Shown: piece after piece, positions 1 through 39,876 of the stretch
Numbering within the stretch: the first letter of the stretch is position 1
Layout of the letters: the number at the start of each line of letters is the position of its first letter
Assembly: GCA_001818235.1 (NCBI GenBank)
Contig: MHJY01000010.1
Span: 17,609-81,608 of the forward strand
Reading direction: 5' to 3'
DNA: 64,000 bases
Origin: Candidatus Jacksonbacteria bacterium RIFOXYB2_FULL_44_15
GTDB lineage: Bacteria > Patescibacteriota > Patescibacteriia > UBA9629
Translations under genes and position numbers: made by a program
The notes under the pieces: model-generated
What the model saw: the letters and a program-made list of their open reading frames with translations, nothing else
The model's database searches: none
What the model was told of the DNA's origin: nothing

Positions 1-221
1 TGGGAGAATGGTGAAAAATCAAATCCACCGTCGCGCTGACATTATCAACGCCTACAAACTGATGATGACTGTTGCAAACTGCAAAAGTCAGCCGTCGGTG
101 GAATCTTAAATAGTAAAAAAAATGGACAGAAAAAGGATACGTGAATGTTTTGGACAAACAAACACGTTTCCTTCTCCAAAATCATCTCTAATTCGACCAG
201 TGAGTCGAAGAACTATTGCAT

Positions 222-245
222 AGATTCCTGCTTTCGCGGGAATGA
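222..245 (+). repeat. Family-A oriented motif copy (GATTCC-tgctttcgcg-GGAATGAC) pointing at the downstream structured element
   Basis: Same 5'-GATYCC...GGRATGAC-3' architecture as the copies at 2.5, 11.9, 20.8, 24.9, 51.9 and 60.5 kb. Confidence 0.5.
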
Positions 246-299
246 CAAAATCCAGTTAAAGAGACGATTTTAGAGAAGGAACATAAACATGCGCCTTCA

Positions 300-470
300 A
301 TTAATCCGCTTAAGTGGCACGCCCCGTCAGACTATCCAGTTTGACGGGGCACAAGTCAGGGAAAAAACTATAATCCCTGATCTCCCCTAAAAAGTGAGCG
401 GGGATTTTAGCACCATCCTCTCTCCGAAAATGGCGACTTTCCTGGCCGCCATCCAAGCGGATTAATCGAG
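300..470 (+). ncRNA. Candidate structured RNA of unknown class: four hairpins closed by a long terminal stem
   Basis: ttaatccgcttaagtgg (300-316) pairs with ccatccaagcggattaa (455-471). Internal hairpins are gccccgtcaga/tttgacggggc, tcaggga/tccctga, tcccc/gggga and atggcg/gccgccat. No ORF of 60 aa or more lies in 1-530, and an intrinsic terminator follows directly. I found no match to tmRNA, RNase P or SRP signature motifs. Confidence 0.25.
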
Positions 471-482
471 GGCGACACCAAT

Positions 483-511
483 AAAAAAATCCCATCATCG
501 GGATTTTTTTG
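483..511. terminator. Bidirectional intrinsic terminator (A7-atccc-atcatc-gggat-T7)
   Basis: A GC stem is flanked by an A-run and a T-run. It sits between the candidate RNA on the plus strand and the end of the hicBA operon on the minus strand. Confidence 0.5.
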
Positions 512-530
512 ATTTTGCTACGACGTAAAA

Positions 531-755
531 CTATTTTAATCGATTAAATTCAGCAACGGTTAAGCGCATGTCTTTAATGATTTCACTGAGCAACCCTTTG
601 CCAATATCTTCACCATAGTGCATCGGCACAACCGTAGTTCTGCCATCTAAATGTTCAAAAAAAGCATGGCTCCCTTTTTGATGAATCAGTTGGAAACCAA
701 GCTTAATGAGGATTTTGACCAATTTTCTGGTATTAATCGGCGATAGCGTGCTCAT
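531..755 (-). CDS. hicA: HicA-family mRNA interferase toxin (YcfA-like)
   Basis: 74 aa with a KGSH motif (HQKGSHAFFEH) and size typical of HicA. It overlaps the upstream antitoxin gene by ATGA. Confidence 0.65.
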   Translation of the reverse strand: MSTLSPINTRKLVKILIKLGFQLIHQKGSHAFFEHLDGRTTVVPMHYGEDIGKGLLSEIIKDMRLTVAEFNRLK

Positions 756-5289: not shown

Positions 5290-6530
5290 ATATGACCATT
5301 AAGCATACCATTAAAACATCTTTTAACGGCTTAAGCGTTAATAAATCGCGGACTCTGCTGACGCTTTTGGGGATAGTTATAGGCATCACTTCCATTATTT
5401 TAGTGATGTCTGTAGGCGCCGGCGCGCAGTCGGCCATCTTGGGCCAGTTTAAAGGTTTAGGCTCGCGGACAATTTCAATTGAACCTGGCCGGATGCCGGA
5501 AGGCCCTTCGGACATGGCGGAAATTTACACTGACTCACTCAAAAAACGGGAACTCGTTGCTCTGCAGGACAAGGGTAATGTTCCCGGATTGGTAAATCTT
5601 ACGCCACTCGTGATGTTACCGGCCACGCTGGCCTATCAAAACGAAACGTACCGCGCCAACGTTATCGGCGGCTCGCCCTTGATCGCGGATATTCTTGATA
5701 TTCAGCCGGAGACCGGAAATTTTTTTACCGAGGATGACGTAAAATTACGGTCTTCGGTCACAATTATCGGTTCCAAAATTAAGGATGAACTTTTTGGCGC
5801 CAGTGACGCGATTGGCCAAAAAATTAAAATAAAAGGCCGGACTTTTCGCATAATTGGCGTAATCGCACCCAAAGGGCAAGTGATGATGCTTGAAGTCGAC
5901 AAAATGGCGCTCGTGCCTTATACCACTGCCCAACAATATCTCTTGGGAATTGATTATTTCCAAGATATCATGGCCCAAGCCGAAAGCGAAGAAGCAGCTC
6001 CGGCCGCGGTTAGAGATATCGAACAAACACTTCGAACTTTACATAACATTACTGATCCAAAAAAAGACGATTTTCACATTGTTACCCAGGCCGTGGTGGT
6101 AGAGCGGGTCGGAATTATTACTGGTATTTTGACGGTGCTTCTGGTATCAGTCGCCGCCGTATCTTTAGTCGTGGGCGGAATCGGCATCATGAACATCATG
6201 CTTGTATCGGTGACTGAACGAACCCGGGAAATTGGCCTGCGCAAGGCGCTTGGCGCGACTGACCAAGATATTTTAAGCCAATTTTTAACCGAAGCGATGA
6301 TGATGACGGTGCTCGGCGGTTTACTGGGGATCGGATTCGGAGCAGGATTTTCGCTGATTGCGGCCTCAATCTTAAATAAAGTAACTGCCTTGGCTTGGCC
6401 ATTTACTTTCCCGATCTCAGCCGCCATGCTGGGAATTGGGGTGGCGACATTTATCGGCCTGGTATTCGGGCTCTACCCGGCGCGTCTGGCATCCCAAAAA
6501 AGCCCAATAGAAGCCTTAAGATACGAATAA
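5286..6530 (+). CDS. ABC transporter permease, MacB_PCD plus FtsX family
   Basis: N-terminal transmembrane segment, a large periplasmic domain and three C-terminal transmembrane helices (FtsX-like). It overlaps the ATPase gene by 4 nt. Confidence 0.85.
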   Translation: MNMTIKHTIKTSFNGLSVNKSRTLLTLLGIVIGITSIILVMSVGAGAQSAILGQFKGLGSRTISIEPGRMPEGPSDMAEIYTDSLKKRELVALQDKGNVPGLVNLTPLVMLPATLAYQNETYRANVIGGSPLIADILDIQPETGNFFTEDDVKLRSSVTIIGSKIKDELFGASDAIGQKIKIKGRTFRIIGVIAPKGQVMMLEVDKMALVPYTTAQQYLLGIDYFQDIMAQAESEEAAPAAVRDIEQTLRTLHNITDPKKDDFHIVTQAVVVERVGIITGILTVLLVSVAAVSLVVGGIGIMNIMLVSVTERTREIGLRKALGATDQDILSQFLTEAMMMTVLGGLLGIGFGAGFSLIAASILNKVTALAWPFTFPISAAMLGIGVATFIGLVFGLYPARLASQKSPIEALRYE

Positions 6531-7211: not shown

Positions 7212-7910
7212 ATGGAAAAAGATTTATCGCCACTCGAAAATAAACTTCGGGTTAGATTTAATAACCATAACTTTTTAAGACAATCCCTAGTTCATAAATC
7301 CTACATCAACGAAAATCCGTCCTTTACTCTCGACCACAACGAACGACTGGAATTTTTGGGTGACGCGGTCCTAGAGCTAATCGTTACCGAATACTTGTTT
7401 AAGCATTATCCGCGAACGCCGGAAGGGGAAATGACTAATTGGCGCGCCGCGCTCGTCAACTCGACTATGCTGGCGCAACTGGCCGAAGAGTTTAATCTTT
7501 ATAAATATCTTTATCTTAGCAAAGGCGAAAAAAAAGACCAAAACCCCAAAGCAAAGCAATATATTTTAGCCAATGCTTTCGAAGCGCTGATTGGCGCCCT
7601 CTACCTGGACCAAGGGCTCGATACTGCCAAAGATTTTATTATCAAAAATATCGTTTCAAAATTAGCGAACATTCTTAAAAACAAACTGTATCTTGACCCC
7701 AAAACTCGTTTTCAAGAAAGCGCTCAAGAACAAGAAACCGTTACCCCAACCTATAAAGTCTTAAAAGAGGAAGGCCCAGATCATGCCAAAACATTCACTA
7801 TCGGCGTGTATTTAAAAGACGAATTAGTGGCTATAGGACAAGGGCTATCCAAACAAGAAGCCCAAGTCGAAGCCGCCTTAAAAGCTCTCCAAGTAAAAAA
7901 ATGGGAATAA
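7212..7910 (+). CDS. rnc: Ribonuclease III
   Basis: ERLEFLGDAVLEL catalytic signature plus a C-terminal dsRBD (TFTIGVYLKDELVAIGQGLSKQEAQ). Confidence 0.9.
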   Translation: MEKDLSPLENKLRVRFNNHNFLRQSLVHKSYINENPSFTLDHNERLEFLGDAVLELIVTEYLFKHYPRTPEGEMTNWRAALVNSTMLAQLAEEFNLYKYLYLSKGEKKDQNPKAKQYILANAFEALIGALYLDQGLDTAKDFIIKNIVSKLANILKNKLYLDPKTRFQESAQEQETVTPTYKVLKEEGPDHAKTFTIGVYLKDELVAIGQGLSKQEAQVEAALKALQVKKWE

Positions 7911-10473: not shown

Positions 10474-10480
10474 CGTTATT

Positions 10481-10600
10481 CTGACCTGGTTAGCTTGTCC
10501 CTCCAATTTGGCGGGCAAGCTAACCAGGTCAAAGTCTATCTACAAGAAAAAACCTGGTTAGTTTACCCGCCGCATTAGTGGGTTTGCTAACCAGGTTTTA
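10481..10600. terminator. Two tandem long hairpins sharing a CCTGGTTAGC core, between convergent genes
   Basis: The first hairpin is gacctggttagcttg...caagctaaccaggtc and the second is aaaacctggttag...ctaaccaggtttt. The second is flanked by A and T runs and is probably a bidirectional terminator. Confidence 0.4.
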
Positions 10601-10669
10601 ATTTTGGTTTAAATGGAATGACTCTCGCTTTCCCCTCCTTACGAAGGAGGGGTTAGGGGAGGTTTATGT

Positions 10670-11882: not shown

Positions 11883-11906
11883 ACTCCTTGTCATTCTCGC
11901 GAAAGC
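11883..11906 (-). repeat. Family-A motif copy 11 nt upstream of the HemN-like start
   Basis: On the coding strand it reads GATTCCCGCTTTCGCGAGAATGAC followed by AAGGAG (SD), a 4-nt spacer, then ATG. It contains a GNRA (GAAA) tetraloop hairpin. Confidence 0.6.
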
Positions 11907-12066
11907 GGGAATCTATATCAATAGTTCAACCAGCATTCTTGTCCTCCCATTGAGAACACCATATTATACACCTCTCAAAACAATTGCCAACTAAATTATA
12001 CAAATAGATATACCTAATACCTAATACTTAATACCTGATACTTAAACAGCTCTTACTATAGCCAAA

Positions 12067-12114: not shown

Positions 12115-12879
12115 ATGACGACAATATCAAAAAAAATGACCGAATCAATTAAAACCTTAGCCGAATTCGGCCTCACCCCCAATCAAACCAAAGTTTATTT
12201 GGCACTCCTTGAATTAGGCGAAGCCAGGGTGCAAGATATAGCTAAAAGAGCTCAAGTCCTGCGAACTACTACTTACGAGGTTTTAGAACAGCTCAAACAA
12301 ATCGGCATCATCAGCCAATACAACCGACAGAATATTCGAATTTACTTTGCGGAACCGCCAAGTTCTTTGGAGCAAATTTTGGAGACTAAAAAAAAAGCAA
12401 TCCAAAAAATCCTGCCGCAACTTGAATCCGTTTATAATATCAGTGACTTTAAGCCTAAAATAAGATACTATGAAGGGGTTAAAGGGTACAAAATTGTTTA
12501 TGAAGATACTTTAACCTGCCAAGAAAAACATTTGCGCGCCATCTTGTCGATGCAGGACATGTTTGAAAAAATGGGCGAGCAATATATGGAAAATTACATT
12601 AAAAAACGCGCTACCACTGGTATCAATCTTAATGTCATTCGAATCGGCCCGCACGAAGTCAAACCGATTTGGCCGGAAAGCCGCGAAGAATTGCGCGCCG
12701 TCCGCTTTGCGCCAGAGAACTTTGTTTTTCCTTTAACGATGTATATTTACGATAATAAAGTCAGTTTAATGTCCACCAAACGTGAAAATTTTAGTTTAAT
12801 CATCGAGTCCAAAGAATTTATGCAGACTCAGAAAGCCTTATTCGAAATTTTGTGGCAAGTATCCACGAAATCAAAATGA
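12115..12879 (+). CDS. TrmB-family transcriptional regulator (paralog 1)
   Basis: N-terminal wHTH (TKVYLALLELGEARVQDIAKRAQVLRTTTYEVLEQL) and a TrmB C-terminal domain. It is similar to the other three paralogs in the window. Confidence 0.75.
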   Translation: MTTISKKMTESIKTLAEFGLTPNQTKVYLALLELGEARVQDIAKRAQVLRTTTYEVLEQLKQIGIISQYNRQNIRIYFAEPPSSLEQILETKKKAIQKILPQLESVYNISDFKPKIRYYEGVKGYKIVYEDTLTCQEKHLRAILSMQDMFEKMGEQYMENYIKKRATTGINLNVIRIGPHEVKPIWPESREELRAVRFAPENFVFPLTMYIYDNKVSLMSTKRENFSLIIESKEFMQTQKALFEILWQVSTKSK

Positions 12880-19290: not shown

Positions 19291-20781
19291 TTAAGCAATG
19301 CCCAAAACTTGGCGCACCACTGCCCGATCATCCCATGGCACCAAACATTCCCTCACTGCCATCACCTCTTCACAACCCTTGCCGGTTAAAACAATCACCT
19401 CTTTCGGTTTGGCCAAGGCAACCGCTTTTTCGATCGCCTTGCGCCGGTCTAAAATTTTCCAATAGTTTTGATTTATCTGACGATTCAAATCACTTTTGAC
19501 GCCCACTTCCACTTGGTTCATGATTTCCGCTGGGTCATCATCATAAGGATCCTCGTTAGTGATAATTACATATTTGGCATACTTCGCCGCCAAGCTCCCT
19601 AATTTCGGCCGCTTAGCTTTATCCCGGCCGCCACCGACTGCCCCTAGTACGGCAATGATTGATGAGTGCGGTTCTGGATGTTTGCCCGAACTAGGCCGAG
19701 CTTCGGGTGAGCAAAGCGAACCCCGACTGAGCGAAGCGAAGGAGTTTGAGGCCAGTGAGGGTAAATATCCAGAACCACGCACCGATAAAATCGTTTCGTA
19801 TACCTTCTCCAAAGCCGCCGGATCATGGGCGTAATCAACTATAACTGTTATATCGCGCTTAGAATCATAAATCACCTCCATTCGACCAGGCACTCCAACC
19901 ATTTTTTCCAAGGCCTGCTGGATTATTTTGATTTCAACTCCCTGCAATAACCCGACCGCGATTGCCGCTAAACAATTATAAATATTAAACTCGCCCAACA
20001 AATTTGTTTTAAAATGATATTTTTGATTCTCATACTCCAAATCAAATTCTGACCCTTGCGCCAGCAACTTACAGTCCGTCGCTATAATTTTTTTGAAATT
20101 TGATATTTGATTTTTGAAATTTTTTTCGGATTTCGGATTTCGGATTTCGGATTTTACCCCGTATCCCCACTTCTCATCCGCCTCAAACTTAACGAAGTAT
20201 TCCGCCTGCTCATCATCCAGATTCACGACGCTGACCTTTTTAGCGTCATTGCGAGGAGCAAAGTGACGAAGCAATCTTGAGTATAATTCTTGACCTTTGA
20301 GCGCCGCAAATAACCGCCCTTTTGCCTCTTTGTATTTTTCGAAAGACCCGTGGGATTCGATATGCTCTGGGGTGAGATTTGTAAAAACAACTGTTTGATA
20401 ATTTATGCCCCAATGGCGGTATTGTTTAATGCCTTCAGAAGTTGTTTCGATCACCGCGTACTGACAGCCAGCTTTGACCATTTCTCTCAGCAACTTTTGC
20501 AACCGAAACCGGCCTTGCATACCTTGTTTTGTGCGGTTGATCCATGATTTATCAGCAATTTTAAAATTGATTGAGGTAGTTAAACCAACCTTGTTGCCGG
20601 CCTCAGTCAAAATTTCCCAAATAAGGTTACAAGTCGTTGTCTTGCCGTTAGTACCGGTCACGCCGATTACTTTTAGCCGCCGGCTCGGAAAACCATAAAA
20701 TACATTCGCCAACACAGCCAAGGTTTTATGATAAAGCAAGATGATTGATTCGGGAACAAATTTTCGAAGTAATTTTTTCAT
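19291..20781 (-). CDS. murE: Mur ligase family protein (MurE-like UDP-MurNAc-tripeptide synthetase) carrying two in-frame repetitive insertions
   Basis: P-loop VIGVTGTNGKTTT, DYAHDP, GGGRDKAKRP and a C-terminal NEDPYDDDP motif. The start is moved to the ATG at 20781 because the ATG at 20808 lies inside the upstream repeat. Confidence 0.75.
   Translation of the reverse strand: MKKLLRKFVPESIILLYHKTLAVLANVFYGFPSRRLKVIGVTGTNGKTTTCNLIWEILTEAGNKVGLTTSINFKIADKSWINRTKQGMQGRFRLQKLLREMVKAGCQYAVIETTSEGIKQYRHWGINYQTVVFTNLTPEHIESHGSFEKYKEAKGRLFAALKGQELYSRLLRHFAPRNDAKKVSVVNLDDEQAEYFVKFEADEKWGYGVKSEIRNPKSEKNFKNQISNFKKIIATDCKLLAQGSEFDLEYENQKYHFKTNLLGEFNIYNCLAAIAVGLLQGVEIKIIQQALEKMVGVPGRMEVIYDSKRDITVIVDYAHDPAALEKVYETILSVRGSGYLPSLASNSFASLSRGSLCSPEARPSSGKHPEPHSSIIAVLGAVGGGRDKAKRPKLGSLAAKYAKYVIITNEDPYDDDPAEIMNQVEVGVKSDLNRQINQNYWKILDRRKAIEKAVALAKPKEVIVLTGKGCEEVMAVRECLVPWDDRAVVRQVLGIA
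19666..19782. mobile_element. 117-bp MITE-like element with 14-16 bp terminal inverted repeats, inserted in-frame in the Mur ligase gene (family B)
   Basis: Left TIR gtgcggttctggat (19666-19679) and right TIR atccagaaccacgcac (19767-19782). 117 = 39 codons with no stop. It encodes RGSGYLPSLASNSFASLSRGSLCSPEARPSSGKHPEPHS just before the conserved GGxRD motif. Confidence 0.6.
20095..20160. repeat. Tandem heptamer (cggattt x4) plus gaaattt-type repeats, in-frame inside the Mur ligase gene
   Basis: Encodes the low-complexity segment SEIRNPKSEKNFKNQISNFKK between conserved Mur ligase blocks. Confidence 0.6.
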
Positions 20782-30592: not shown

Positions 30593-30710
30593 ATGGCCAA
30601 AAATTTTCGATTATCAATTTTTTAAAAAATCGAAATCAAAATGGTTATTCAGTGATTTGATATTAACAAAACTATTATATACTAAAATGTTTTTTTGGTC
30701 TACTCCCCGG

Positions 30711-30730
30711 ATGTCGCTCGCGAGCGACAT
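30711..30730. promoter_or_regulatory. Perfect 20-bp palindrome ATGTCGCTCGCGAGCGACAT about 120 bp upstream of hsp20
   Basis: Exact inverted repeat. It does not match CIRCE or HAIR consensus and may be an operator for an unknown regulator. Confidence 0.35.
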
Positions 30731-31417
30731 GGCCCATTGCAATTCATAAGCCAAATAATGATTCTAAAAAAAATAAGGGCACAACGGAAGCGCCCGGTTG
30801 AAAATTGTTTCACGGCGTCCAAATTGTGCCCTATGCTCTGATTTAGAGCACAGGGTACTACTTCTTCTACTCTTTTATAAGTAGCAAAAGTAATTTCCTT
30901 GAATTTGACTCTAAACCAGTTTATTCTTACCATTCCTAGGTGGACATTAAGCCGTTTTTTTATGCTTAAAGCCCCCAAACTAATTCTTCTTTTTTTATTT
31001 AATTTTTTTGTTTTTGTTTTGTCCTTTTTATTGATCCTCCTATGGAGCATAAGCTCCACTAAGAGGTTAGAGAATTATGGAACAGTTAAGAATCTAGATA
31101 CTTTAACAGTTTTATCTATCGCTAGATAATCCGACTGAACTCTTCGCTAAAGATAAATCTCCGCAAAGAGTTAATGTGGGCGTTAAAGCATCTAAACTCT
31201 CACTGTTCCTTACCTCGTAATATTTTCAAAGAACTTTCATATCTCTATTGGTTACATTATATCATTCTTAGTTAGTGCGGTCAATCGTCGAAGTTAAATA
31301 ATTGTGTTTCCATTTTATGCGTAATTAAAGCTAAAATTACTGTCAGTAAATAATAATTTTTTGACTCTGTTGATAACTATTTATTTGTTACTCACTATTT
31401 TTTCAAAATATATTAAT

Positions 31418-31437
31418 TTATCCACAATTTATCCACA
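31418..31437 (+). promoter_or_regulatory. Two perfect tandem DnaA boxes (TTATCCACA x2, 11-bp phasing) in an AT-rich gene-free region; candidate oriC
   Basis: Exact 9-mer consensus at 31418-31426 and 31429-31437. Further 7-8/9 boxes lie at 31549-31568. CTGTAGAC iteron-like repeats recur to the right, and an AT-rich stretch lies immediately to the left. Confidence 0.4.
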
Positions 31438-31439
31438 AT

Positions 31440-31871
31440 AAAACTAAAAAGCACCTACCAAAAGGTGCCCTTTAGTCTCCTCCCCGATAACTCGAGGAGG
31501 AGTAAGAGGTGATACTGCCCACAAATCTCTGTAGCACTGCAGTTTTTAAGTGGATAACTTATCTACAGTACTACGACTGGACCAAACTAATCTAGCGTTA
31601 AACACTAATTAGTAGCCCAGCCATAATCTGTAGACAAGAGAATTACCCAAAGGCAATCCTAAGACGAATCCTAGGAAACCTCTGCCTTTCGCCCATTTTG
31701 ATAATCGTAATTACCCAAATAGGCGAAAGGTTCTAAACGTTACCGTATAAGAAAGATAATCCCCATGCTTGTCGTGCCTACAGAGACATAAAGCCGAAAT
31801 TATCGGAAAATCTTCATATCTCTGTAGACCTCTTATATCTTAATTAACAAACAACTTACTTAATTTAAAGA
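31440..31871 (-). ncRNA. Candidate ~430-nt non-coding RNA on the minus strand (promoter to intrinsic terminator), class unknown
   Basis: Minus-strand TTGACA(31906-31901)-N17-TAAGAT(31883-31878) promoter. A hairpin gcacctaccaaaaggtgc at 31451-31468 is followed on the minus strand by TTTTTAGTTTT. No ORF lies between them. I could not match it to tmRNA, RNase P or 6S. Confidence 0.25.
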
Positions 31872-32008
31872 CCCAGTATCTTAGCACACAATAAAAAAAC
31901 TGTCAAGGGCCGCCTTTGCTTTCTGATTTCTACGGTGTTACAATAAAAAAAGCTTAGCACTGTCTACAAAATAATACGCTAATTAAATATCAGATATTTC
32001 ACTAATTT

Positions 32009-33019
32009 ATGAAAAAATCAGAAAATTTAAATACAGCCCTGTCGCCGGATTTAGAACCTGAAGTCGAAATTACTTTACGTCCACAAAATCTGACTGAATT
32101 TGTTGGTCAAAATCAGATCAAAAAAAATCTTGCAATTTCGATTCAAGCCGCACAATATCGAAACGACTCTCTCGAACATATATTGCTTTATGGCCCGGCT
32201 GGGCTGGGAAAAACTACCCTTGCCCATATTATCGCCAAGGAGACTGGCAACTACATTCATGCCACTTCTGGCCCGGCAATCGCGAGAGCCGGCGATCTGG
32301 CGGCCTTATTAACTAACCTCCAAGCCGGCGAAATACTTTTTATTGACGAAATCCATCGACTTAACAAAACAATCGAGGAGATTTTATATCCAGCCATGGA
32401 AGACTATAAACTTGACCTGATCGTCGGCAAAGGACCCTCAGCCCGCACTCTTAAATTAGAATTGCCCCGTTTTACCTTAATTGGCGCAACCACCCGTTTA
32501 AGTTTACTGTCATCGCCTTTGCGCGATCGTTTTGGTTTTATCCATCGCCTAAAATTTTATAAAGATGAACATATTAAAGAAATAATTAACCGTTCCGCCA
32601 ATATCTTAAATATTGTGATTGATGATGAGGCCGCTTCTACTCTGGCCGCGCGGTCGCGTAAGACGCCCCGCATCGCTAACCGCCTGCTCAAACGAGTGCG
32701 TGATTTTTGCCAAGTTAAAGGAGACGGACAGATATCACCTGATCTCACCAACCAAACCTTAGAATTACTGGAAATTGACGAACTCGGCTTGGATGATATT
32801 GATCGCCGAATTCTAGAAATTATTATCGAGAAATTTAACGGAGGCCCAGTCGGATTAAGCACGATCGCCGCCGCAATCGGTGAAGAAGAAGAAACAATCG
32901 CCGAAATTTACGAACCGTATTTGATGCAAATCGGCTTTCTCGCTCGCACGCCGCGGGGTCGCCAAGTTACCGAATCCGCTTACCAACATCTGCACCTTAC
33001 GCCGGTAAAACTTTTTTAG
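32009..33019 (+). CDS. ruvB: Holliday junction branch migration helicase RuvB
   Basis: [14 protein letters not shown] Walker A, a RuvB_N/AAA module, and a winged-helix C-terminus. Confidence 0.9.
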
Positions 33020-39706: not shown

Positions 39707-39751
39707 AAAATTTGTATCAGAAAAAATTTAATGATATTATTATAAATAACC

Positions 39752-39847
39752 GAACAAGTATTTTTTGCTTGCCTCAAACTCCCTTCGGTCGGGGTTCGGC
39801 TATGGCCTCACCCTAAGCTCGGCTTCGCAAAAAAAACTTGTTCGGTC
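39752..39847. repeat. Family-B element: about 96 bp bounded by a 10-bp inverted repeat (ccgaacaagt / acttgttcgg); internal core related to the Mur ligase gene insertion
   Basis: Shares the gtcggggttcg...tcaccc...aagctcggc core with the reverse complement of 19680-19765. Confidence 0.5.
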
Positions 39848-39876
39848 ATCATAATTGCCTAACACGATTTAGTCAA

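What the first reader, a model, noticed from the sequence alone, without database searches (positions are those of the whole stretch)
1..530. Gene-free 530 bp with a four-hairpin element closed by a 17-bp terminal stem and followed by a terminator
Region 300-470 folds on paper into four short hairpins enclosed by a long-range stem (ttaatccgcttaagtgg / ccatccaagcggattaa) and is followed at 483-511 by an A7-stem-T7 intrinsic terminator. A Family-A leader motif sits 55 nt upstream (222-245) in the orientation seen before genes. Positions 27-45 and 88-107 also form a long imperfect inverted repeat. The arrangement (leader motif, structured domain, terminator, no ORF) resembles an sRNA gene or a cis-regulatory element whose target gene lies outside the window. 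The spurious-looking 62-aa ORF at 310-498 (minus strand) overlaps it.
Basis: seen in the sequence. Interest (0 to 1): 0.5.

Follow-up and report, generated by a model that had tools for sequence, protein, structure and literature searches.

The report
Structured tail after an orphan gene
The 530 bases are a real, unusually strongly folding, gene-free stretch. It lies directly downstream of an orphan gene in a Candidatus Jacksonbacteria genome, so it is most simply that gene's structured 3' tail, built from palindromic modules (one a known repeat type), rather than a recognisable small-RNA gene or riboswitch.

Summary
Window 292-474 is a 183-nt unit closed by a 27-nt inverted repeat, enclosing four hairpins and followed by an A7-stem-T7 bidirectional terminator (fold z = -10 on +, -8.2 on -). 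Two further stem-closed modules (24-102 and 168-281) precede it.

No Rfam family matches. No sigma-70-like promoter lies on the + strand inside 1-540, and no co-oriented gene follows. The next genes, hicA and hicB, converge on the terminator.

Contigs that extend the window show a co-oriented 167-aa ORFan ending about 45 nt before position 1, with no terminator in between. The region is therefore best read as the 3' tail of a roughly 2.1-kb unit driven by a perfect consensus promoter.

The "Family A leader motif" is an NTS/dRS3-type hairpin repeat, a known family.

One link is new. The hairpin loop at 417-425 (CCUCUCUCC) is the exact complement of a 9-mer that occurs four times in the unit's 5' leader and nowhere else in about 84 kb.

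No relative of the 183-nt unit was found, and all copies are clonal, so covariation cannot be tested. Function is inferred, not shown. Interest is modest.

The parts
24..102 (.). Module D1: imperfect inverted repeat (24-41 / 86-102) enclosing two small hairpins
   Evidence: z = -4.8 on +, -4.1 on -
168..281 (.). Module D2: 22-nt, 91% inverted repeat (168-189 / 260-281) enclosing a small hairpin and the NTS-like hairpin. Its 5' arm is CU-rich (UUCCUUCUCC) and its 3' arm GA-rich (GGAGAAGGAA).
   Evidence: z = -5.7 on +, -7.6 on -. Both stem mismatches are G-U on the minus strand and A-C on the plus strand (read from the sequence).
220..247 (-). Minus strand reads TGTCATTCCCGCGAAAGCAGGAATCTAT.
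   Evidence: It matches 25 of 28 positions of the consensus CGTCATTCCCGCGMAVGCGGGAATCYRG (PMC11893778).
292..318 (.). Module D3, 5' arm of the closing stem
   Evidence: I1; 2nd longest inverted repeat in 64 kb
321..350 (.). D3 hairpin 1: 13 bp, loop AUCC, with one G-U pair on the + strand
   Evidence: (I8)
356..380 (.). D3 hairpin 2: UCAGGGA / UCCCUGA. On the + strand the 5' half can alternatively pair with 437-445.
383..404 (.). D3 hairpin 3: UCCCC / GGGGA
413..433 (.). D3 hairpin 4. It has 4 bp on + with a 13-nt loop, and 10 bp on - through two G-U pairs.
417..425 (+). CU box CCUCUCUCC in the loop of hairpin 4. It is the exact complement of the GGAGAGAGG box found four times in the 5' leader just upstream of the window.
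448..474 (.). Module D3, 3' arm of the closing stem
   Evidence: I1
483..510 (.). Bidirectional intrinsic terminator (A7, 4-bp UCCC/GGGA core, T7). It lies 9 nt after D3 on + and 20 nt after the hicA stop on -.
   Evidence: (I10)
531..755 (-). hicA toxin gene, convergent on the terminator (context)
   Evidence: PF07927
752..1006 (-). hicB antitoxin gene (context)
   Evidence: PF15919, weak

Best explanation
Window 1-511 is the untranslated 3' tail of a roughly 2.1-kb transcription unit whose start lies outside the window.

**Layout of the unit**
- A perfect TTGACA-17-TATAAT promoter sits about 1.63 kb upstream of window position 1.
- It drives a 1.07-kb structured leader, then a 167-codon orphan gene that stops about 45 nt before position 1.
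- Then come three stem-closed palindromic modules: D1 (24-102), D2 (168-281, built around an NTS/dRS3-type repeat) and D3 (292-474).
- The unit ends at the bidirectional terminator (483-510), which it shares with the convergent hicBA operon.

**Shown**
- The anatomy and the strength of folding.
- The absence of an internal promoter or terminator.
- The co-orientation of the upstream ORF.
- The exact box / anti-box complementarity.

**Inferred mechanism**
- The tail acts in cis as RNA. Its long stems (22-27 bp) protect the mRNA 3' end from exonucleases, or serve as RNase III entry sites, as REP/BIME and Correia-type elements do.
- The loop of D3 hairpin 4 presents CCUCUCUCC. This can pair (9 bp, about -16 kcal/mol) with any of four GGAGAGAGG boxes in the 5' leader of the same transcript.
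- That pairing would couple the 3' end to the leader. It could occur within one molecule, or through a processed 3'-derived fragment.
For: **Context**
- Identical contigs from seven or more samples extend the window. A co-oriented 167-aa ORF ends about 45 nt upstream.
- Its codon-frame score of 0.184 lies inside the range of real genes (mean 0.25, 5th percentile 0.16) and above every wrong-frame control (maximum 0.07). It has an AAGGAG ribosome-binding site.
- No terminator-like site lies between its stop and 483-510. No promoter-like site lies on the + strand of 1-540. A 12/12 consensus promoter lies at L001 12413-12385.

**Structure**
- Fold z-scores are -4.8 (D1), -5.7 (D2) and -10.0 (D3 plus terminator) on the + strand.
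- Two of the four longest inverted repeats in 64 kb lie here.

**Box / anti-box**
- GGAGAGAGG occurs four times on the transcript strand of the leader, once as its complement in D3, and zero times elsewhere in the 64-kb window or the 20-kb locus. About 0.05-0.18 occurrences are expected.
- In the MFE of the whole 2,134-nt transcript the CU box stays in its hairpin loop, and box 1 is 7/9 unpaired.
- In four related Parcubacteria loci, the homologous leader carries GGAGAG boxes plus exactly one CUCUCC, which pairs locally with a box. GA:CU pairing is therefore a conserved theme of this unit.
- The relatives' leader domain has a roughly 21-bp closing stem with compensatory changes: one pair is UA, AU and GC in the three sequences. 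This shows the unit functions as RNA.

**RNase III**
- The enzyme is encoded about 7 kb away in the window.
Against: - There are no transcript data, so neither the strand nor the 3' end is shown.
- Both strands fold about equally well. The minus strand is slightly more stable overall (-204.5 vs -192.4 kcal/mol for 1-530).
- Imperfect stem positions give G-U pairs more often on the minus strand (7) than on the plus strand (3). This is not significant.
- D3 has no relative anywhere, and all copies are clonal, so selection on the pairs cannot be tested.
- The CU box matches the leader boxes, not the orphan gene's own ribosome-binding site (only 4 nt). The nearest box is about 1.35 kb away.
- The relatives have no comparable 3' tail.
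- A 530-nt 3' UTR is long for a bacterium.
Confidence: 0.4

Rival explanations
1. The region is a DNA-level mosaic of selfish or neutral palindromic repeats, like NIME or BIME arrays or a decayed MITE, that accumulated in the dead space between convergent genes. Any RNA folding is a by-product, and the 9-mer match is a relic of local duplication and inversion.
For: - Both strands fold equally well.
- D3 has MITE-like dimensions: 183 bp with 27-nt terminal inverted repeats.
- D2 is built around a member of a known dispersed repeat family, NTS/dRS3.
- Four NTS-like cores lie within 2.5 kb here, against five in the other 64 kb.
- The site is a convergent-gene junction next to a toxin-antitoxin cassette in a variable island. 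Some assemblies break just beyond hicB.
- All five closing-stem mismatches are transition-type, as expected for decaying repeats.
Against: - D3 is single-copy in about 84 kb of this genome.
- It is absent from 577 kb of related Parcubacteria sequence by covariance model.
- It is absent from 241 million metagenome records by a two-arm pattern, and from phage and plasmid collections.
- No target-site duplication is evident.
- The exact inverted 9-mer shared with four leader boxes has roughly a 0.002-0.004 chance of arising in 530 nt.
Confidence: 0.25
2. D3 plus the terminator is an independent small-RNA gene on the + strand of about 220 nt. Its CU-rich loop acts as a seed.
For: - A structured domain is followed directly by a terminator.
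- An accessible CU-rich loop is typical of seed regions.
- Perfect targets exist nearby.
Against: - No promoter-like site lies on the + strand of 1-540 under the scan's criteria. The best hand-found candidate (TTAAAG-17-GAACAT, 256-284) matches only 3/6 + 3/6.
- There is no Rfam match and no homologue.
Confidence: 0.1
3. The functional strand is the minus strand. The modules are a read-through tail of the hicBA mRNA, or an antisense RNA running into the 3' end of the orphan gene, and they carry a fifth GGAGAGAGG box in the same sense as a recognition site.
For: - The minus strand is more stable for D2 (-53.3 vs -44.7 kcal/mol; z = -7.6 vs -5.7) and for 1-530 overall.
- Seven of ten imperfect stem positions are G-U on the minus strand.
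- Hairpin 4 has 10 bp on minus and only 4 on plus.
- The terminator stem has only 3 G-C pairs and could leak.
- A minus-strand terminator-like site lies at the orphan gene's start (L001 11258-11270).
Against: - A terminator stands between hicA and D3 on that strand, and no minus-strand promoter lies in 476-530.
- D3 plus the terminator has the better z-score on the plus strand.
- The 7:3 asymmetry is not significant, and the minus strand is U-rich, which inflates G-U counts.
Confidence: 0.1
4. GGAGAGAGG is a double-stranded DNA site. It would be either an operator for the divergently encoded TrmB-like regulator, or 9-bp inverted repeats for a site-specific inversion that flips the orphan gene relative to its promoter. 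D3 would merely host one copy.
For: - There are four direct copies and one inverted copy confined to 2.1 kb.
- A winged-helix regulator gene is adjacent.
- From my own knowledge, 9-bp inverted repeats suffice for the fim switch.
Against: - No recombinase was recognised nearby.
- All assemblies from seven or more samples show one orientation.
- The box is not palindromic.
- In relatives the boxes pair with CUCUCC within the RNA, and the leader shows RNA covariation.
Confidence: 0.05
5. One of the small ORFs is a real gene: 289-390 (+, 33 aa, preceded by AAGGAA) or 310-498 (-, 62 aa).
For: - Each is called in some assemblies.
- Codon-frame scores are 0.149 and 0.080, reached by only about 1.4% of wrong-frame controls.
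- The 33-aa ORF has a plausible ribosome-binding site 7-8 nt upstream, sequestered in the D2 stem.
Against: - The two ORFs overlap on opposite strands, so at most one can be real.
- The control set is not calibrated for intergenic DNA.
- The 62-aa ORF starts inside the terminator hairpin, has no ribosome-binding site, and has no relative in 5.8 billion proteins.
- Both run through 13-27-bp stems.
Confidence: 0.03

Closest known systems
REP/BIME clusters at the 3' ends of enterobacterial operons
   Same: - Clusters of imperfect palindromes between convergent genes.
- They are co-transcribed with the upstream gene and fold on both strands.
- Their classical role is to protect upstream mRNA from 3'-to-5' decay.
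   Different: - REPs are short (about 35 nt) and occur in hundreds of copies.
- D1 and D3 are long (80-183 nt), multi-hairpin and, as far as can be seen, single-copy.
Correia / NEMIS elements of Neisseria and similar MITE-like units such as ERIC and RUP (own knowledge)
   Same: - Units of 100-160 bp with terminal inverted repeats of about 26 nt.
- They insert in intergenic DNA and are co-transcribed.
- The long stem is an RNase III substrate that changes mRNA stability.
- D3 is 183 bp with 27-nt arms, and RNase III is encoded in the window.
   Different: - Those families are multi-copy with TA target duplications.
- No second copy of D3 and no duplication was found.
- Sequence is unrelated apart from a chance GGATTAA heptamer.
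NTS / dRS3 hairpin repeats and NIME mosaics; targets of Ssn GIY-YIG ssDNA nucleases (PMC11893778)
   Same: - Window 220-247 (minus strand) matches 25 of 28 positions of the NTS consensus.
- Two better copies lie at 11889-11916 and at L001 12577-12604 (perfect).
- The copies cluster around particular genes, as described for NTS.
   Different: - This applies only to the small hairpin inside D2, not to D3.
- The D2 copy fails the strict published degenerate pattern through one stem mismatch.
- No ssnA homologue was recognised in the 84 kb examined.
- The host is a CPR bacterium, whereas the paper emphasises Pseudomonadati.
icaR mRNA of Staphylococcus aureus: a 3'-UTR UCCCCUG motif pairs with the 5' UTR of the same mRNA (own knowledge)
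   Same: - A long 3' UTR carries a pyrimidine-rich motif complementary to a purine-rich element in the 5' region of the same transcript.
- The proposed outcome is RNase III cleavage or translational control.
   Different: - Here the complement is to four leader boxes 1.35-2.0 kb upstream, not to the gene's own ribosome-binding site.
- Nothing has been tested experimentally.
3'-UTR-derived small RNAs that share the mRNA terminator, such as CpxQ, SroC and DapZ (own knowledge)
   Same: A structured domain with a seed-like loop lies directly before the parental mRNA's terminator. There is no promoter of its own.
   Different: - Those sRNAs are usually 50-100 nt, Hfq-dependent and conserved.
- D3 is 183 nt plus the terminator and is an orphan.

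Membership tests
Any Rfam 15 family (sRNA, riboswitch, ribozyme, 6S, SRP, RNase P, tmRNA and others) | Covariance-model score at or near the gathering threshold | tested here: not met
   The only gathering-level hits in the window are two tRNAs elsewhere. The best hits in 1-1200 are miRNA and snoRNA models at 15-22 bits against thresholds of 37-100.
Intrinsic (Rho-independent) terminator | Stem-loop followed by a U tract; for a bidirectional site, also an upstream A tract | tested here: met
   Arms 483-493 / 500-510 are perfect, with A7 and T7. The stem is G+C-poor (3 G-C pairs; about -12 kcal/mol).
Cis-regulatory leader or riboswitch | A co-oriented gene immediately downstream | tested here: not met
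   The next genes, hicA and hicB, are on the opposite strand and converge on the terminator.
Independent sRNA gene | Own promoter | tested here: not met
   No promoter-like site lies on the + strand of window 1-540, or on the minus strand between 476 and 530.
Independent sRNA gene | Conservation or covariation in relatives | not testable with these tools
   Only identical copies exist. No relative was found.
3' UTR of an upstream gene | A co-oriented ORF upstream, with no terminator or promoter in between | tested here: met
3' UTR of an upstream gene | A continuous transcript | not testable with these tools
   No transcript data are available.
MITE (Correia / ERIC type) | Terminal inverted repeats and a size of 100-400 bp | tested here: met
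   27-nt arms at 81% complementarity, in a 183-bp unit.
MITE (Correia / ERIC type) | Multiple dispersed copies | tested here: not met
   Caveat: only about 84 kb of this genome could be read.
MITE (Correia / ERIC type) | Target-site duplication | tested here: inconclusive
   Only ACA or a palindromic TTAA flanks the arms.
NTS / dRS3 (Ssn-related motif), for 220-247 only | Palindrome ATTCCC-N8-GGGAAT with the oriented flank GTCATT | tested here: met
   There is one stem mismatch (AGGAAT), and 25 of 28 positions match the NTS consensus. The copy fails the strict SRM regular expression, while sister copies at 11889-11916 and L001 12577-12604 pass.
NTS / dRS3 (Ssn-related motif), for 220-247 only | An associated ssnA (GIY-YIG) gene in the genome | tested here: inconclusive
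   A loose GIY..YIG pattern hits only the orphan ORF, with non-canonical spacing. Pfam finds no GIY-YIG domain in it even at E <= 10.
icaR-like 5'-3' UTR pairing | A 3'-UTR motif complementary to the 5' region of the same mRNA | tested here: met
   (9/9 nt against four sites).
icaR-like 5'-3' UTR pairing | Pairing occludes the ribosome-binding site and has a regulatory effect | tested here: not met
   Only 4 nt are complementary to the orphan gene's AAGGAG. A regulatory effect is not testable here.

The most novel reading that the evidence does not exclude
D3 is the 3' module of an undescribed class of long structured RNA units found next to TrmB-like regulator genes in Parcubacteria. The class has a consensus promoter, a leader of about 1 kb built of stem-closed domains that carry GGAGAG boxes, and then a variable small gene. 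In this species the single CU anti-box has moved to the 3' tail. The transcript would therefore close on itself, or be controlled in trans by its own 3' fragment, through GA:CU pairing, possibly with RNase III cleavage.
Probability: 0.12. Interest if true: 0.6.

Novelty: new member of a known kind. Interest (0 to 1): 0.3.

Why it matters
If the tail works as proposed, it would be a case of 5'-3' communication within a bacterial mRNA in a CPR organism. Almost nothing is known about RNA regulation in that group, and Hfq-type chaperones are often missing (own knowledge).

It would also give a handle on the conserved, unannotated structured leader next to TrmB-like genes.

If the tail is only a palindromic mosaic, the practical value is smaller:
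- It shows that NTS/dRS3-type repeats, so far discussed mainly for Neisseria and other Pseudomonadati, also populate a Jacksonbacteria genome.
- It shows that strong fold z-scores alone should not be read as evidence of sRNA genes in such genomes.

Tried and rejected
- **Known RNA families:** Rfam at gathering level on the window, and at E <= 10 or E <= 1 on 1-1200 and on extended and related loci, gave nothing. ARAGORN gave nothing.
- **Other copies or relatives of D3:**
  - Window pattern searches found none.
  - Two viral-contig scans gave only single-arm chance hits.
  - The metagenome scan with both arms gave five unrelated tandem-repeat loci.
  - Phage and plasmid BLAST found nothing.
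  - A single-sequence covariance model over 577 kb found only itself.
  - The translated 62-aa ORF, used as a proxy, found only itself in 5.8 billion proteins.
- **Synteny through the DUF192-C39 neighbour:** this spent the single genome-contig scan. The nearest relative has 42% identity, so it gave no usable synteny. In hindsight this was a poor use of the scan.
- **Gene remnant:** tblastx against related loci found nothing.
- **Population variation:** contigs are clonal, with 1-2 SNPs per 20 kb and none in 1-540.
- **Identity of the orphan ORF:** Pfam, PADLOC, NCBIfam and PHROGs gave no hit; PDB sequences gave only chance hits at E about 0.5; 1.84 billion representatives returned only the ORF itself. 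The single-sequence AlphaFold model was unusable at pLDDT 37.
- **Ssn-like nuclease idea:** a loose GIY-YIG pattern hit in the orphan ORF suggested an Ssn-like nuclease flanked by NTS repeats. This was rejected for lack of any profile support and for non-canonical spacing.
- **Retron, bridge RNA, omega RNA, 6S and DGR readings:** considered from the anatomy and dropped. No reverse transcriptase, recombinase or TnpB/IscB gene is nearby, and no model matches.
- **Iteron origin reading of the GA boxes:** dropped because the spacing is irregular (160-290 nt) and the relatives show RNA covariation.
- **The large neighbouring 1120-aa protein:** no hit anywhere.
Full report

Yes. The sequence shows a 27-nt inverted repeat at 292-318 / 448-474, 81% complementary and 129 nt apart. 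It encloses four hairpins:
- 321-350 (13 bp)
- 356-380 (7 bp)
- 383-404 (5 bp)
- 413-433, or alternatively 432-450

Region 290-520 folds at -102.4 kcal/mol on the + strand (z = -10.0) and -105.7 kcal/mol on the - strand (z = -8.2). None of 200 dinucleotide shuffles reaches these values.

The terminator at 483-510 is a perfect 11-nt inverted repeat with A7 upstream and T7 downstream. It scores as a terminator on both strands.

Two more stem-closed modules precede the element:
- D1 (24-102): z = -4.8 on +, -4.1 on -
- D2 (168-281): a 22-nt, 91% closing repeat, z = -5.7 on +, -7.6 on -

The closing stems of D3 and D2 are the 2nd and 4th longest inverted repeats (arms up to 400 nt apart) in the whole 64 kb.

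In a GC-corrected scan of 200-nt windows the region lies in about the top 2%. It is not the strongest locus.

**2. What surrounds it?**

On the minus strand, hicA (531-755) and hicB (752-1006) converge on the terminator.

An exact-protein lookup returned contigs from at least seven samples or assemblies that extend the window (L001-L014). All are 100% identical over 1-540. The organism is Candidatus Jacksonbacteria bacterium RIFOXYC2_FULL_44_29.

In window orientation, the upstream sequence contains:
- A co-oriented 167-codon ORF with an AAGGAG ribosome-binding site. It stops about 45 nt before window position 1.
- A 1.07-kb gene-free leader upstream of that ORF.
- A 12/12 consensus promoter (TTGACA-17-TATAAT, with TG) at L001 12413-12385. 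It is divergent from an equally perfect promoter for a TrmB-like regulator gene.

No terminator-like site lies between the ORF stop and 483-510. No promoter-like site lies on the + strand of 1-540.

The ORF is a complete orphan. It finds only itself in 5.8 billion proteins and in 1.84 billion representatives read exhaustively. It has no Pfam, PADLOC, NCBIfam or PHROG family match, and against PDB sequences it gives only chance hits at E about 0.5.

Its codon-frame score of 0.184 nevertheless sits within real genes of this window (mean 0.25, 5th percentile 0.16) and above all wrong-frame controls. Its GC3 is 0.59 against 0.45 for other genes. I therefore treat it as a real, probably acquired, gene.

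The simplest reading of 1-511 is then the 3' tail of this unit, which spans about 2.1 kb.

**3. The 'Family A leader motif'**

The motif at 225-246 has a close copy at 11890-11911. That copy lies in the 5' UTR of a radical-SAM gene, and the shared block is about 36 nt. BLAST of the locus against unrelated loci found only this palindrome, at 89-96% identity, in Dehalococcoidia and other uncultured bacterial genomes.

A literature search for the sequence led to PMC11893778. That paper defines the NTS repeat, CGTCATTCCCGCGMAVGCGGGAATCYRG. NTS encompasses the Neisseria dRS3 palindrome and is the ssDNA target of Ssn GIY-YIG nucleases.

- The minus strand of 220-247 matches 25 of 28 consensus positions.
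- The copies at 11889-11916 and at L001 12577-12604 satisfy the paper's degenerate pattern, and the latter is a perfect NTS.

The motif therefore belongs to a known dispersed hairpin-repeat family and is not a leader signal. NTS-like cores are enriched at this locus: four in 2.5 kb against five in the remaining 64 kb.

**4. A link between D3 and the leader**

The loop of hairpin 4 carries CCTCTCTCC (417-425). Its complement, GGAGAGAGG, occurs four times on the transcript strand of the leader, at L001 12349, 12189, 11983 and 11693. It occurs nowhere else on either strand of the 64-kb window or the 20-kb locus, where 0.05-0.18 occurrences are expected. Only the 9-mer is shared, and the flanks differ.

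In the MFE of the full 2,134-nt transcript, the CU box stays in its local loop and box 1 is 7/9 unpaired. The 9-bp duplex is worth -16 kcal/mol.

**5. Relatives of the unit, though not of D3**

TrmB-like homologues at 52-64% identity lie in loci with the same architecture (L112/L113, L114/L115, L123, L124, and partially L116):
- a large unknown protein convergent with the regulator gene
- a divergent near-consensus promoter
- 0.5-1.5 kb of gene-free DNA carrying GGAGAG boxes on the transcript strand
- exactly one CUCUCC, which pairs locally with a box and looks like a terminator in L114
- a different small ORF in each locus

L112 and L114 share about 1 kb at 60-75% identity. L001 shares only the promoter region at the sequence level. 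It does keep analogous features: a stem-closed domain whose 5' arm ends in the GA box, and the box GGAGAGAGGGCTCTTTGAAAAT, which matches the relatives' GGRACTTTGAYAAT.

A three-sequence alignment of the relatives' domain gives a closing stem of about 21 bp in which one pair is UA, AU and GC, and three outer pairs also change on both sides. This supports RNA-level function of the leader.

None of the relatives has a D3-like tail. A covariance model of D3 finds only itself in 577 kb.

**6. Which strand?**

This is undecided.
- D3 plus the terminator has the better z-score on the plus strand. D2 and the whole 1-530 region are more stable on the minus strand (-204.5 vs -192.4 kcal/mol).
- Of ten imperfect positions in the main stems, seven are G-U on the minus strand and three on the plus strand. 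This is not significant, and the minus strand is U-rich.

The context argues for the plus strand: a co-oriented ORF, a strong promoter, no intervening terminator, and a terminator between hicA and D3 on the minus strand.

**7. Most likely mechanism (inferred)**

The tail is co-transcribed with the orphan gene. Its 22-27-bp stems either block 3' exonucleases or recruit RNase III. RNase III is encoded about 7 kb away in the window, at roughly 7212-7910 in converted coordinates.

The CU box can pair with the leader's GA boxes. This would couple the two ends of the transcript, either directly or through a processed 3' fragment.

The closest precedents, from my own knowledge and not checked here, are:
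- REP/BIME stabilisers
- RNase III-processed Correia elements
- the icaR 3'-UTR / 5'-UTR interaction
- 3'-UTR-derived sRNAs

D3 fails the multi-copy criterion for a MITE. It also fails the criteria for a riboswitch (no downstream gene) and for an independent sRNA (no promoter).

**8. Rivals**

- **A purely DNA-level palindromic mosaic.** This is the strongest rival. The folding is symmetric, the dimensions are MITE-like, NTS repeats are present, and the site is a junction in a variable island.
- **An independent sRNA.**
- **A minus-strand read-through or antisense RNA.**
- **A DNA site or inversion switch.** No recombinase was recognised and no alternative orientation appears in any assembly.
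- **A small protein gene.** The 62-aa ORF starts inside the terminator hairpin and has no relatives. Codon scores for the two short ORFs are uninformative.

**9. Verdict**

Part of the region, the NTS-like hairpin, is already known.

The 183-nt unit is an orphan member of the general class of palindromic 3'-end elements. One non-trivial feature, the exact anti-box, ties it to a conserved but unannotated structured leader.

Interest is modest at 0.3. The more interesting object is the leader family just outside the window.

Noticed in passing
window 31440-31906 (minus strand): A candidate independent non-coding RNA. Promoter TTGACA-17-TAAGAT (with TG) lies at 31906-31878. A 436-nt stretch folds at -192.8 kcal/mol (z = -13.6) and ends in a terminator near 31470-31445. 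It contains repeated CUACAGAGAU hairpin arms. There is no Rfam match, and the region 31059-32009 is gene-free.
   Followed up: partly
window 30777-31284 (minus strand): A second promoter-to-terminator unit lies directly downstream: TTGACC-17-TATAAT at 31284-31256, and a terminator at 30795-30777. The only ORF in it (30700-31059, GTG start) runs past the terminator. Its 5' end contains GTTCTTTGAAAAT, which resembles the CTTTGAAAAT box of the TrmB-adjacent leader.
   Followed up: no
L001 11305-12378 (just upstream of window position 1); L112 4526-5800; L114 4675-5780; L123 5058-5800; L124 about 5470-5800: A structured, gene-free leader of about 0.5-1.4 kb lies under a near-consensus promoter, divergent from a TrmB-like regulator gene and next to a 960-1150-aa protein with no recognisable domain. 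It is conserved in architecture across several Parcubacteria. It carries GGAGAG boxes, one CUCUCC partner, and a stem-closed domain with compensatory pair changes. A different small ORF follows in each genome. It is not in Rfam.
   Followed up: partly
window 11889-11916 (+) and L001 12577-12604: Further NTS/dRS3-type repeats lie in the 5' UTRs of a radical-SAM gene and of the TrmB-like gene. A second TrmB-like gene (12115-12879) is divergent from the radical-SAM gene. The palindrome ATTCCCGC-N4-GCGGGAAT would also suit a dimeric winged-helix operator, but this was not tested.
   Followed up: partly
window 10476-10660: The junction between the convergent carbohydrate-kinase and radical-SAM genes holds two near-duplicate long hairpins (arms ACCTGGTTAG...CTAACCAGGT) and a third G+C-rich hairpin. 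This is the most stable 200-nt window on the + strand and the second most stable on the - strand in the scan.
   Followed up: no
L003 11943-11957 (leader, about 1.19-1.20 kb upstream of window position 1): One sample carries C10 instead of C9 in a homopolymer, plus a compensating 1-nt deletion 15 nt away. This is the only clustered difference among otherwise clonal contigs. It could be an assembly artefact or frame-preserving variation inside a 91-codon ORF.
   Followed up: no
window about 1007-1152 and beyond (contig ends of L011, L012): Some assemblies of the same species end within about 20-175 nt after the stop of the DUF192-C39 gene (1153-2364), before hicB is complete. This hints that the hicBA-to-TrmB segment is a strain-variable island.
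   Followed up: no
window 39746-39849, 19670-19776, 48331-48511: Other long-range inverted repeats (23-25 nt arms, 58-131 nt apart) could close further stem-enclosed units.
   Followed up: no
collections genome contigs and metagenome contigs: Neither scan returned the source locus itself, although exact-protein lookup shows it in NCBI, JGI, ENA and Logan assemblies. Negative results from those two scans therefore do not cover this organism's own contigs with certainty.
   Followed up: no
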